Below are positions 14,287 to 23,346 of a stretch of 64,000 bases of DNA, piece by piece. The stretch spans positions 180,641-244,640 of the forward strand of contig JAHQWK010000004.1 in NCBI GenBank assembly GCA_029856145.1. Reading direction: 5' to 3'. Every line of letters starts with the position of its first letter. Position 1 is the stretch's first letter. The translations under genes were made by a program, and so were the position numbers. This DNA is from Promethearchaeia archaeon. Lineage in GTDB: Archaea > Asgardarchaeota > Lokiarchaeia > Sigyniarchaeales > SOKP01. The notes under the pieces were generated by a model. That model did no database searches and was not told where the DNA came from. It saw only the letters and a list, made by a program, of their open reading frames with translations.

Positions 14287-15054
14287 TTATTTTCCCATTC
14301 TTCGATTTCTTCTTAAATAATCTTCTATATCTTCAATTACCATTTCTTTATTATAATCAGGCCATAAATCCTCTCTAAATTTAAATTCAGCATAAGAAGA
14401 ATCCCATAACAAAAATCCTGAGATTCTTGCTCCATCATCCATTCCAGTTCTAATGATGTAATCTACTGGAGGGAAATTTTTCGTATAAAGATATTTTTTA
14501 ATTAAATCCGTATTTACATCTTCTGGATTAACACCATCACTGATTATTTCCTTTACAGCGTCGACTATTTCTTCATGACCATCATACATAATACAAAGGT
14601 TTATGAAATTTTGGTCATGTTTCTTAGTAAATTCAATTAATTCTTCAATTTTTTTCTTTGCATTCTCTGGTAACATTGATATCCTACCAATAACATTGAA
14701 TTTAACTTTTTCTTCTTTGACAATCGATTCATTTATTACCGTATCGACTGCTTTAATCACTATCTTATAAATATACTCAAGTTCCTCAGGTTTACGTTTT
14801 TTCACATTTTCAAGTGATAAAATATACAAACTTAAATATTGGATCCCCGCATCAAAAAAATCAAATAGCCTCTTTTTGAGGTTTTCATATCCGACTAGAT
14901 GACCAAAATTGATATCAAGGTTTCTTTTTTTCGCCCATCGTCTGTTTTTGGTTAAAGGGGGAAATCCCTTTTAAATACCATCAATGATGAGCCCGATATG
15001 CTTAGGTAACCTATCTTTTCCAGTTTTTTTTAATTCTTCTAAAGTAGTGACCAT
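14287..15054 (-). CDS. uppS: cis-prenyltransferase (undecaprenyl diphosphate synthase family), split by a 30-nt intron; 245 aa spliced
   Basis: Exon 1 MVTT...PKHIGLIIDG; exon 2 NRRWAKK...SLEN...IRTG..RISGFLLW..SYAE; in-frame TAA at 14971-14973 lies within the insertion. Confidence 0.92.
14946..14975 (-). other. Putative bulge-helix-bulge mRNA intron in uppS (30 nt)
   Basis: TTTAAAAGGGATTTCCCCCTTTAACCAAAA hairpin; removal gives GAT GGT AAC AGA CGA TGG (DGNRRW). Confidence 0.85.
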
Positions 15055-15189: not shown

Positions 15190-15431
15190 TTTTTTAGAAC
15201 AATCAGGAGGAATTTTAAATTTATAAGCGATTATCTCATCTTTCATTGACATGTCTAGCTTTTCCTCTGCCTCATAATAGATTCAATTTCATCAAAAGTG
15301 CTTATCTCATCGATGTTGATATTCAGCAATAAGAATGCATACTGAATGAACCTTGCACGAGAGATATAAATTACTGTCTCCTCATCTTCGAAGCGAAGTG
15401 ATAAATATTCATTTACTATAAATTCTTGCAT
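15190..15431 (-). pseudogene. Frameshifted N-terminal fragment of a Loki-type LRR-associated protein family
   Basis: MQEFIVNEYLSLRFEDEETVIYI...FDEIESI continues in another frame as EAEEKLDMSMKD...KIPPD, then decays. Confidence 0.55.
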
Positions 15432-15705
15432 GTTTTCTTTGAGTAGGTTTTTCAATATTATAATATTACCTATTTAAATTGAACGACTCCACAAATTTAA
15501 ATCATTATCCTCATAATTAATGATAAGTGAGATAATCATATGACAAATCTTTAGATTATTACTCTTCATACTCTTATTATTCGAAATTATCATTCATATC
15601 ATTAATTTTAAATACTATTTTGCAATACTTTGGTTTAATTAGATAAGTTTTTGAATAAATAAATATTACATTAAAGAAAAAAAAAGAAATTCAGAGATAC
15701 GGTTA

Positions 15706-20799: not shown

Positions 20800-21993
20800 A
20801 TGAAATTAACATCAGAAGAACAGGACACGCTGGATGGCAAGCACGGTAAAGCTGCCCAAAAATCAATGGAAATTTTAACCACATTGGGCGAAATATTTGA
20901 TGCTGAATGCATGATCGATGTATATGGCGTTCAGATAGCTGGAGTATCGTACGCCAATCTAGGGGAAGCAGGTTTGGAATTCTTAAGCGAAATGGCAGAA
21001 GATGGAAAAGTTAGAGTTTTAGCGACATTAAATCCAGCAGGAATGGATCGTGAAAATTGGCAAGCTTTAGGAATAGATGAAGAATTTGCTAAAAATCAGA
21101 ATCGAGCAATTGATGCATTTGCCAAAATGGGTATAATTACAACATGCTCTTGTACCCCATATTTAATTGGAAATGCTCCACACTACGGTCAACATCTTGC
21201 ATGGGCTGAAAGTAGTGCTGTATGTTATGCAAACTCAGTTATAGGTGCTAGAACTAACCGTGAGGGTGGTCCAAGTGCTTTAGCTTCAGCTATAACCGGA
21301 AAAACGCCAAAATATGGTTATCATTTAGATGAACATCGTCATGGAGAGGTATTAGTTAAAATAAATGCTCCAATTAAAGGTACTGATGGATTTGGTGTTT
21401 TGGGAAAAATAATTGGGGATAAATTAGTCGAGTTAGGAAAGAAAATTCCTTATATAACAGGAATTCCTTCTGCTACAGTTGAAGAACTCAAATCTTTTTG
21501 TGCATCAGTTGCGACTTACGGTGGAACAGCTTTATTCCATATGAAAGGTATAACTCCAGAATATAATAATTATCAGAAACCTAGTGATATTGTTTTTGAA
21601 ATTAATCAAGATGACTTAGATAGAACGCGATTGGAACTTATTGATGATGATATTGAGATAGATTTTGTTAGTATAGGGTGCCCTCATGCTTCAATTCACG
21701 AAATTGCAAAGATTGCGAGCTTATTGAAGGGAAAGAAAGTAAAAAAAGAATTTTGGATCACGACTGCTCGACCTACAAAAAGAATTGCTGATGAAGCGGG
21801 TTATTCTAAAATAATTGAAAATGCAGGAGCGAAATTTGCAGCAGATACTTGTTGTGTTGTTGCTCCAATTAAAGAACGTTTTAAAGGAATTATGGTAGAT
21901 TCAGCAAAAGCTTGTTATTATGGTCGTGCAAAGAACAAATTTAAAGTAAAAATTGGTTCAGTTGAAGAATGTGTTGAGGAGGCAATAAAATGA
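20800..21993 (+). CDS. Phosphomevalonate dehydratase large subunit (aconitase X)
   Basis: GVSY, CSCTPY, ESSAVCYANSVIGARTNREG, GCPH, DTC. Confidence 0.9.
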   Translation: MKLTSEEQDTLDGKHGKAAQKSMEILTTLGEIFDAECMIDVYGVQIAGVSYANLGEAGLEFLSEMAEDGKVRVLATLNPAGMDRENWQALGIDEEFAKNQNRAIDAFAKMGIITTCSCTPYLIGNAPHYGQHLAWAESSAVCYANSVIGARTNREGGPSALASAITGKTPKYGYHLDEHRHGEVLVKINAPIKGTDGFGVLGKIIGDKLVELGKKIPYITGIPSATVEELKSFCASVATYGGTALFHMKGITPEYNNYQKPSDIVFEINQDDLDRTRLELIDDDIEIDFVSIGCPHASIHEIAKIASLLKGKKVKKEFWITTARPTKRIADEAGYSKIIENAGAKFAADTCCVVAPIKERFKGIMVDSAKACYYGRAKNKFKVKIGSVEECVEEAIK

Positions 21994-22379
21994 AATTAGC
22001 TGGTAGAAAAATCTTTAAAGGTACTGCTGAGGCAGAAGCAATTGTTACACAAGATGGAATTTCTTTTTATGGTGGTATTGACCCTGATACAGGAAAAGTA
22101 GTTGAAGTTGGCCATGAGCTTGAAGGACAATCGATATCAGGAAAAGTGTTGGTTTTTCCAACCGGTAAAGGATCAACAGTGGGATCTTATACCATGTATA
22201 GAATGAAAAAGAATAACACTGCTCCTGTTGCAATCGTTAATAAAGAAATCGATACAATTGTTGCAGTAGGGTGTATAATCAGCGAAATTCCTTGTGTGGA
22301 TAAAATTGATATAAGTAATATCAAAACAGGACAAAAAATTATTGTTAATGGTTCTGAAGGAACTGTGGAGGTAAAATAA
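21990..22379 (+). CDS. Phosphomevalonate dehydratase small subunit (DUF126 swivel domain)
   Basis: ISFYGGIDPDTG, GKGSTVGSY. Confidence 0.9.
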   Translation: MKLAGRKIFKGTAEAEAIVTQDGISFYGGIDPDTGKVVEVGHELEGQSISGKVLVFPTGKGSTVGSYTMYRMKKNNTAPVAIVNKEIDTIVAVGCIISEIPCVDKIDISNIKTGQKIIVNGSEGTVEVK

Positions 22380-23346
22380 ATGGGAGTCGGAAAAGGATAT
22401 GGAAAGACCATACTTTTTGGTGAAATTATTTTCCTATTTCAGGAATAAACACTATCATTTTGTTGTGTATGGTCTTCCAGCAATCGCATCAGCTTTAGGA
22501 TCCTCTACGACTGCTGAAGTTAAAGTAGTCAAGGGTAATGGTTGGACAGTTAATGATCAAAGACTTGCAACACCAGGTTACAAAAAGAAGAAATTCAATG
22601 AGGCAATACAATCAATTAAAAATGTAATTGAACATTTGAGAGTGGATACCGAGAATAAAAAACTTGAAATAAAATTTGCGGGGGATCTGATTGCCGCTAG
22701 CGGAGTAGGTGCTTCAGCTGCTCAATGTACATCACTTTCCCGAGCTTTAAATGACACGTTTAATCTCAAATTAACTGAAAAAAAGATAAATGAGGCAGCT
22801 TATGAAGGAGAGAAAGCCTATCATGGTACTCCTTCAGGTATTGATAACACAGCCTCTACTTATGGTGGTTTAATTTGGTTTGTTAAAAACTTGAGAGGGG
22901 GGGAAAATACGATGGAACTTCTACAGTCACCAAAGAAAATGCCCTTAGTAATAATAAATTCAGGAATAACAGCTTCTACAACAGAAGTAGTAGCTGATGT
23001 TCGACGTTTAAAAGAGGAATCTCCTTTAAAATTTGAAAAAATCTTTAATAATTATGAAAAATTAGCATTAGCAGCAAAAAAAGCCTTACTTGAAGGAAAT
23101 ATTAACACTGTTGGTGACCTAATGAATCAAAACCACAAATTACTACAAGATATAACGGTATCTGGAGAGATTAATGATAAATTAGTCGAAATCTCCTTAC
23201 GAAATGGGGCTAAAGGTGCTAAAATGACAGGAACAGGGCGAGGTGGTTTGGTCATAGCATTAGCTGAAAATGAAGAAATTCAAGATGAAATCGCCAAAAC
23301 TATTGAAAAAAAAGGATATAATGCCTGGAAAACCATGATTGGATGA
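22380..23346 (+). CDS. mvk: Mevalonate kinase split by a 31-nt intron; 311 aa spliced
   Basis: Exon 1 MGVGKGYGKTILFGE starts immediately after the upstream stop; exon 2 HFVVYG...GVGASAA, HGTPSGIDN, KMTGTGRGG. Confidence 0.93.
22425..22455 (+). other. Putative bulge-helix-bulge mRNA intron in mvk (31 nt)
   Basis: ATTATTTTCCTATTTCAGGAATAAACACTAT; central helix GGTG/CACT with 3-nt bulges; removal gives GGT GAA CAT TTT (GEHF). Confidence 0.9.

What the first reader, a model, noticed from the sequence alone, without database searches (positions are those of the whole stretch)
22401..22478. 31-nt BHB intron splitting the GEH motif of mevalonate kinase
The ATG at 22380 abuts the upstream stop and gives MGVGKGYGKTILFGE, then hits TAA at 22446-22448; HFVVYG resumes in another frame at 22456. 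Fold: central helix GGUG(22419-22)/CACU(22450-53), bulges AA|A and AU|C, intron stem ending UUCCU-AUUUC-AGGAA, and a perfect 10-bp exon stem AAGACCAUAC/GUAUGGUCUU separated from the core by an internal loop (relaxed BHB). Standard cut sites remove exactly 22425-22455 and give GKTILFGEHFVVYG, the GHMP-kinase N-terminal motif. The ORF-track start MERPYF is an artefact of the intron.
Basis: partly seen in the sequence, partly recalled or inferred. Interest (0 to 1): 0.92.

Follow-up and report, generated by a model that had tools for sequence, protein, structure and literature searches.

The report
Mobile tRNA-type intron in mevalonate kinase
The only close mevalonate kinase gene of this Asgard (Loki-type) archaeon is broken by a 31-base insert shaped like the introns archaea cut out of tRNAs, so its mRNA almost certainly must be spliced (published for only two archaeal mRNAs), and related genomes suggest the insert spreads together with a neighbouring DNA-cutting enzyme gene.

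Summary
Confirmed. Removing 22425-22455 joins MGVGKGYGKTILFGE to HFVVYG and gives a 311-aa mevalonate kinase; only this register restores GEH and fits a bulge-helix-bulge (BHB). The host is a Promethearchaeota (Loki) archaeon, and 17 contigs carry the same interrupted gene. Among relatives, 54 distinct alleles carry a 28-31-nt insert at this junction, always with a stop codon, and 38 lack it exactly. The 3-bp helix core is always paired, with C-G/U-A covariation. The genome encodes two EndA subunits and RtcB, and has at least six more such introns (uppS in this window, rpl11, rnhB, aIF2-gamma, pyrG, elf1). My addition: the intron is mobile. It needs at least 11 changes on the gene tree; near-identical allele pairs differ in a short conversion tract around it; and all six loci found for a free-standing tandem-HNH nuclease family lie just upstream of intron-bearing mvk. 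This points to collaborative homing. Caveats: no spliced RNA was seen, the BHB fold is about 2 kcal/mol above the predicted minimum, and its fourth pair is usually G.A. The scan noted this intron before in other genomes (e1-4843944, e1-5498842); in the papers searched I found only cbf5 and HVO_1309.

The parts
22380..22424 (+). mvk exon 1 (15 codons, MGVGKGYGKTILFGE)
   Evidence: same N-terminus as intron-less orthologs and aligned to the start of the solved mevalonate kinase 2hfs
22425..22455 (+). 31-nt BHB-type intron, with TAA at 22446-22448 in the exon-1 frame
22456..23346 (+). mvk exon 2 (296 codons and stop; GHMP kinase N and C domains)
22419..22422 (+). 5' strand of the central helix (GGUG; GGCG in most relatives)
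22423..22425 (+). 5' bulge AA|A; predicted cut after 22424
22426..22449 (+). intron hairpin with a conserved ANUUC loop (22436-22440)
22450..22453 (+). 3' strand of the central helix (CACU; CGCA in most relatives)
22454..22456 (+). 3' bulge AU|C; predicted cut after 22455
22404..22413 (+). 5' arm of the exon-exon stem
22467..22476 (+). 3' arm of the exon-exon stem
21990..22379 (+). acnX small-subunit gene. Its junction with mvk is the cargo slot: empty here, but holding an HNH gene, a diphosphomevalonate decarboxylase gene or remnants in 28 of 53 intron-bearing alleles
14946..14975 (-). second 30-nt BHB-type intron, in the DG|NRRW motif of uppS (gene 14287-15054), same AUUUC loop

Best explanation
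The 31 nt are a BHB-type mRNA intron. On the operon transcript, exon-1 GGUG pairs with intron CACU between two 3-nt bulges, held by the intron hairpin and an exon-exon stem. The genome's two-subunit splicing endonuclease EndA cuts after the second base of each bulge, RtcB ligates the exons, and the 311-aa mevalonate kinase is translated from ATG 22380. Shown: sequence, structure conservation, exact absence in relatives, presence of the enzymes. Inferred: cutting and ligation in vivo. The intron is also a laterally mobile marker. It spreads among Promethearchaeota by recombination together with about 40-100 nt of exon flank. The most likely driver is a free-standing tandem-HNH/winged-helix nuclease that sits upstream of mvk in some strains, cuts intron-less alleles near the junction, and is copied with the intron during repair (collaborative homing). 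The nuclease gene is later lost or replaced, as in this genome. Shown: patchy distribution, conversion tracts, linkage. Inferred: nuclease activity and target. My odds: splicing about 0.9, lateral spread about 0.85, HNH-driven homing about 0.55.
For: Only one mvk match in the genome by tblastn and by the HMMER search. 54 intron-bearing against 38 exactly intron-less alleles. Exon base -4 with intron base 27: C-G 39, U-A 4, U.G 2, never C.A. On 30 alleles, 87% of cells are paired against 37-44% for slid controls, and 7 pairs have double changes. 52 of 54 alleles keep the core. Exon duplex -14.9 against -6.6 kcal/mol in intron-less alleles; Phe codon TTT in 50/50 against 9/38. EndA alpha and beta and RtcB are present; alpha is closest to the crenarchaeal-type 3p1z and keeps the Y/H/K residues and the KPR loop; Asgard EndA is (alpha-beta)2 with the L1 loop (PMC5829648). 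Mobility: 17-18 changes on the tree, at least 11 forced by well-supported branches, monophyly rejected. Four intron+/intron- pairs have 13-15 mismatches in the 72 nt around the junction against 4-23 in 640 distal nt (p 1e-7 to 1e-10). The flanks of L136 are 3/81 from those of the window but its distal gene is 5/640 from intron-less L034. HNH gene (PHROG E 1e-20; weak beta-beta-alpha-Me fold hits) lies next to intron-bearing mvk in 6 of 6 loci, four of them picked by protein similarity alone. Slot cargo in 28/53 intron+ against 1/37 intron- alleles; about 6 to 0 in independent pairs, p about 0.03.
Against: These collections are mostly DNA, so this is weak. The BHB form is not the predicted minimum-energy fold (median 1.9 kcal/mol above it). 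The fourth helix pair is mostly G.A, and only one pair closes the exon side. The HNH gene was not found in this genome; its activity and target are untested; distant relatives at 30-40% identity lie at other loci with no convincing intron. Flank conservation may reflect shared descent by conversion rather than selection on RNA structure. Single tracts in short metagenomic contigs could be chimeras.
Confidence: 0.88

Rival explanations
1. mvk is a pseudogene, or the insert is an assembly error.
For: The insert shifts the frame and contains a stop.
Against: 17 contigs carry the identical interrupted gene. It is the only mvk match in the genome, inside an intact mevalonate operon. Exon 2 is intact at 70-89% identity across intron-bearing alleles, and exon 1 varies almost only at synonymous sites.
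Confidence: 0.02
2. The protein is made without splicing from ATG 22399 (MERPYF...), and the hairpin is regulatory or incidental.
For: That frame is open here and in 22 of 54 alleles, and gene callers use it.
Against: It is closed or has no start in 32 of 54 alleles, and 20 have a stop in the exon-2 frame inside the insert. It loses the GK.ILFGE motif shared with solved mevalonate kinases.
Confidence: 0.03
3. Translational recoding: a programmed frameshift or a ribosomal hop over the 31 nt.
For: A hairpin with a stop codon is typical of recoding signals (own knowledge), and no spliced RNA was seen.
Against: Insert lengths of 28, 30 and 31 need different frame changes; the 30-nt alleles contain in-frame stops; a simple frameshift would put about 10 residues inside GEH. 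The conserved pairing is exon-to-intron at exact BHB spacing, and the same geometry recurs in six other genes, in different codon phases.
Confidence: 0.04
4. The intron is spliced, but its patchy distribution comes from repeated loss or neutral recombination, and the HNH gene is only one passenger in an insertion-prone slot.
For: 25 of 53 intron alleles, this one included, have an empty slot; most cargo is a decarboxylase gene, not a nuclease. One intron-less allele (L092) has partly intron-type flanks and a 159-nt spacer, which looks like a loss. No nuclease was seen beside the uppS or rpl11 introns in 30 loci each.
Against: Flank comparisons point to gain in L132 and L136. Loss through cDNA would leave intron-type flanks without the intron, which was not seen. 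Two HNH subfamilies in opposite orientations both sit beside intron-bearing alleles only. Cargo is nearly absent from intron-less alleles.
Confidence: 0.35

Closest known systems
cbf5 pre-mRNA intron of Desulfurococcales and Sulfolobales (Yokobori 2009, PMC2738675)
   Same: Short (16-44 nt) intron at a conserved catalytic motif, relaxed BHB, cut between the 2nd and 3rd bulge bases by a hetero-oligomeric EndA, with gain and loss across species.
   Different: Here: an Asgard host, a metabolic gene, one of at least seven such genes in one genome, polymorphic among 99%-identical alleles, with conversion tracts and a linked free-standing nuclease. cbf5 splicing is shown by cDNA; this is not.
Haloferax volcanii HVO_1309 mRNA intron (reviewed in PMC10485636)
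   Same: An mRNA cut by the archaeal tRNA splicing endonuclease and found spliced in RNA-seq.
   Different: Different lineage and enzyme type (alpha2); here the intron interrupts an active-site coding motif.
Collaborative homing of free-standing homing endonucleases with ORF-less group I introns in T3/T7-like phages and a cyanophage (described in PMC10448857)
   Same: A nuclease gene beside, not inside, an intron-bearing essential gene; intron, nuclease and flanks co-convert.
   Different: Here the intron is a 31-nt protein-spliced BHB intron in an archaeal chromosome, not a ribozyme in a phage; cleavage is untested.
Archaeal rRNA BHB introns that encode homing endonucleases (PMC2738675, citing its ref. 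38)
   Same: BHB introns made mobile by a DNA endonuclease.
   Different: There the nuclease is encoded inside the intron and the host is rRNA; here the intron is too small, and the HNH gene ends 145-211 nt upstream of the junction (in L173 it faces the other way).

Membership tests
Archaeal BHB (EndA-spliced) intron | Two 3-nt bulges on opposite strands with cuts after the 2nd base matching the exon borders | tested here: met
   Only register 22425-22455 gives GEH and the BHB core
Archaeal BHB (EndA-spliced) intron | 4-bp central helix | tested here: inconclusive
   4/4 in the window (one G.U); three pairs in 45/45 relatives with covariation, but the outer pair is G.A in 30/45. Fits a relaxed, not a strict, BHB
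Archaeal BHB (EndA-spliced) intron | Helix on the intron side (relaxed HBh' form) | tested here: met
   Intron stem 86% paired, 6 of 9 pairs with double changes
Archaeal BHB (EndA-spliced) intron | Helix on the exon side directly next to the 3' bulge (strict hBHBh') | tested here: not met
   One U-A pair, then an internal loop, then a 9-10-bp stem; relaxed form only
Archaeal BHB (EndA-spliced) intron | Exact absence in orthologs, with the reading frame restored | tested here: met
   38 intron-less alleles
Archaeal BHB (EndA-spliced) intron | Host encodes a broad-specificity EndA and an RNA ligase | tested here: met
   Two PF01974 genes and RtcB; alpha keeps Y/H/K and the KPR loop as in 3p1z
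Archaeal BHB (EndA-spliced) intron | Spliced RNA or circular intron observed | not testable with these tools
   No raw transcript reads; the contig scan found no spliced form
Collaborative homing (free-standing HEG plus intron) | Nuclease gene adjacent to the intron-bearing gene | tested here: met
   6 of 6 loci in relatives; not found in this genome
Collaborative homing (free-standing HEG plus intron) | Co-conversion of exon flanks | tested here: met
   Four pairs, p 1e-7 to 1e-10
Collaborative homing (free-standing HEG plus intron) | Nuclease cuts the intron-less allele and spares the intron-bearing one | not testable with these tools
   Needs an in vitro cleavage assay
HNH (beta-beta-alpha-Me) endonuclease | HNH sequence motif and fold | tested here: inconclusive
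   PHROG HNH families at E 1e-20, two stretches; invariant FHH...LC.NCH twice; top structure hits Hpy99I, ZRANB3 HNH, EndoVII, Cap5 only at Z 4.0-4.7; Pfam HNH below cut-off
Mevalonate kinase (GHMP) | GHMP N and C domains and the N-terminal GK.ILFGEH motif | tested here: met
   the motif is complete only after removal of the insert

The most novel reading that the evidence does not exclude
Loki-type Asgard archaea routinely splice essential mRNAs with the tRNA endonuclease, and their 30-nt micro-introns invade conserved motifs as passengers of free-standing HNH homing nucleases: the intron makes the allele immune to cutting, and splicing makes the insertion harmless. This would be an undescribed route of intron gain in the archaeal relatives of eukaryotes.
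Probability: 0.5. Interest if true: 0.92.

Novelty: new variant of a known kind. Interest (0 to 1): 0.8.

Why it matters
A 2023 review lists only two spliced archaeal mRNAs, cbf5 and HVO_1309 (PMC10485636), and my searches found no paper on such introns in Asgard protein genes. This genome alone has at least seven, in core genes. mRNA splicing by EndA and RtcB, the chemistry eukaryotes keep for tRNA, would then be routine in the lineage closest to eukaryotes. The origin of the cbf5 intron was left open because it is too short to encode a nuclease (PMC2738675). The mvk locus gives a direct test of how such introns spread: a defined nuclease, a defined target, and natural allele pairs with and without the intron. 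In practice, public annotations of these genes have wrong N-termini (55 of 146 homologs checked).

Tried and rejected
Search for spliced contigs: the JGI pattern scan gave 9 hits, all unspliced. Intact 311-aa homologs close to interrupted ones (P0019, P0049, P0011) proved to be intron-less alleles with different flank codons, not cDNAs. Rfam: no match. A de novo BHB scan of the genome was not specific (the mirror-geometry control gave as many hits) and missed real cases; it yielded only rpl11, and the other genes came from earlier notes and were re-checked. The candidates at C25:30254, C2:152894 and C26:74613 were not validated (for C25). The tRNA introns that ARAGORN reported show no obvious resemblance to the mvk intron by eye; only 19 tRNAs were called. 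Foldseek and VIA on the whole HNH model found only the winged-helix domain. No relative of the HNH gene in viral contigs. The ORF upstream of uppS in two intron-bearing relatives is a membrane protein, not a nuclease. Registers giving GDH were rejected by structure.

Full report
Observation. The sequence is as described. ATG 22380 directly follows the stop of the acnX small-subunit gene, the first frame reads MGVGKGYGKTILFGE and stops at 22446-22448, and HFVVYG resumes at 22456. Removing 22425-22455 gives a 311-aa protein. It is the only mvk match in the genome and lies in a mevalonate/isoprenoid operon. An intron-less ortholog aligns from its N-terminus to solved mevalonate kinases through the GK.ILFGEH motif. 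Of 14 registers for a 31-nt removal, only the BHB register restores GEH; 2.2% of shuffled inserts fit the core. 17 contigs from ENA, JGI and Logan carry the same interrupted gene, so this is not an assembly error. The nearest records are Promethearchaeota (Lokiarchaeia) MAGs.

Comparative test. Among related loci, 54 distinct alleles have an insert at the same GE|H junction (50 of 31 nt, 3 of 30 nt, 1 of 28 nt) and 38 lack it exactly. Every insert has a stop in the exon-1 frame. The inner three pairs of the central helix are standard pairs in 45 of 45 unique 31-nt regions; the synonymous Gly position covaries with the intron (C-G 39, U-A 4, U.G 2, no C.A). On a 30-sequence alignment, 87% of cells pair against 37-44% when partners are slid, and seven pairs show double changes (relatedness inflates the shuffle test). 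Exon codons that build the outer stem are strongly skewed in intron-bearing alleles (duplex -14.9 against -6.6 kcal/mol), though shared descent by conversion contributes to this. Weak points: the outer helix pair is G.A in 30 of 45; only one pair closes the exon side; and the BHB form is 2.2 kcal/mol above the predicted minimum here (median 1.9 in 54 alleles). This is a relaxed BHB.

Machinery. The genome has two EndA genes and RtcB. The alpha subunit is closest to the crenarchaeal-type chain 3p1z and keeps the catalytic-position Tyr, His and Lys and the KPR loop. Asgard EndA is reported as (alpha-beta)2 with the L1 loop, the type that cuts non-canonical introns (PMC5829648). Splicing is therefore inferred from structure, conservation and machinery; no spliced RNA was observed.

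Not a single case. The same genome has the same kind of insert in uppS (window 14946-14975, minus strand; 8 of 30 loci of the genus carry it), rpl11 (C28; 28 nt, about 9 of 30 loci; Pfam positions 1-25 and 27-58 on the two exons), and in rnhB, aIF2-gamma, pyrG and elf1, where removal at the BHB register restores the signature motif. uppS and the last four came from earlier notes of the scan; I re-checked their geometry and translation, and for the last four not their relatives.

Mobility. On a tree of the distal gene the intron needs 17-18 changes, at least 11 on well-supported branches, and monophyly of intron-bearing alleles is rejected. Four close intron+/intron- pairs differ at 13-15 of 72 nt around the junction but at 4-23 of 640 nt further down. 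In one clade the intron-less alleles share flanks (4-10 mismatches of 81), whereas L136 has flanks 3 of 81 from this window's type and an intron identical to that of L112, which is 93 of 640 away distally. This indicates lateral gain of the intron with its flanks. The acnX-mvk junction carries cargo in 28 of 53 intron-bearing but 1 of 37 intron-less alleles, and the link holds in independent pairs (about 6 to 0, p about 0.03). Most cargo is a diphosphomevalonate decarboxylase gene. In L111 and L132 it is a 420-aa protein with two HNH-type repeats and a C-terminal winged helix. I predicted that its homologs would lie at the same place. Four proteins chosen by similarity alone (44-77% identity) all lay upstream of mvk, one in the opposite orientation, and all four mvk genes had the intron. 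This matches collaborative homing as described for phage group I introns (PMC10448857). The nuclease was not found in this genome, so here the intron would be an orphan of an earlier homing event. Activity and target of the nuclease are untested, and chimeric contigs cannot be excluded for single pairs.

Rivals. Pseudogene, alternative start at 22399 and ribosomal recoding each fail on the allele series (stops in both frames, three lengths, loss of the motif). The serious rival concerns only the mobility: neutral recombination and loss, with the HNH gene as a passenger.

Known and new. cbf5 and HVO_1309 are the two published archaeal mRNA introns (PMC2738675, PMC10485636). Searches for Asgard or Loki cases found nothing; the library lacks most subscription papers. 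The scan's earlier notes report this mvk intron in other genomes and many similar introns; these are unchecked AI notes and were not counted as support. A word search of the notes found none that links an HNH nuclease to the mvk intron, though first-reader notes raise collaborative homing at other genes. Verdict: a real relaxed-BHB mRNA intron, a new variant of a known kind, with evidence for lateral spread and a testable homing mechanism. Interest 0.8.

Noticed in passing
window 14946-14975 (-): 30-nt BHB-type intron in uppS splitting DG|NRRW; present in 8 of 30 loci of the genus, exactly absent in 22.
   Followed up: yes
L179:1242-1269 (-), G000 C28:14741-14768: 28-nt BHB intron in ribosomal protein uL11 with a perfect GCAU/AUGC helix; patchy in the genus.
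   Followed up: yes
L184, L206, L207, L208, L211, L212 (rpl11 5' part): A second, different interruption upstream of the GPxVGP motif of rpl11 in six relatives; L206 has both. Borders not worked out.
   Followed up: no
G000 C18:61135(+), C5:34181(+), C23:64843(-), C18:41921(-): 30-32-nt BHB-type inserts in rnhB, aIF2-gamma, pyrG and elf1; removal restores the signature motifs.
   Followed up: partly
window 22436-22440: The intron loop is conserved as ANUUC (ATTTC 17, AATTC 12, ACTTC 9 of 50), and ATTTC recurs in the uppS, rpl11, pyrG and elf1 introns, although a BHB does not need a fixed loop. Unexplained: common origin or a binding site.
   Followed up: partly
L031:1704-2732 and about 15 other loci: A diphosphomevalonate decarboxylase gene sits in the acnX-mvk slot only in intron-bearing alleles; it may hitchhike with the homing tract and add a second mevalonate route.
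   Followed up: partly
L067-L069, L073, L075, L082, L093, L098, L101: A clade of mostly Bathyarchaeia-labelled mvk genes nests inside the Loki alleles (lateral transfer of the operon); all lack the intron.
   Followed up: no
L055 mvk start; P0052: ACG in place of the ATG start of mvk in L055; P0052 is called from an internal start, perhaps for the same reason.
   Followed up: no
window 15255-15593 (-): Decayed fragments upstream of uppS: the start of a membrane protein that is intact in L226 and L233, and a piece resembling the Loki leucine-rich-repeat family (the latter from memory).
   Followed up: partly
L171 mvk: One-base difference in a poly-A run shifts the mvk frame in L171 but not in L172; probably an assembly slip.
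   Followed up: no
G000 whole genome: ARAGORN calls only 19 tRNAs in a 97% complete genome, several implausible; many tRNAs are probably split by non-canonical introns.
   Followed up: no
L137-L166: Distant relatives of the tandem-HNH protein (25-43% identity) occur in 25 of 54 genomes of the genus, free-standing or inside long ORFs, at varied loci.
   Followed up: partly
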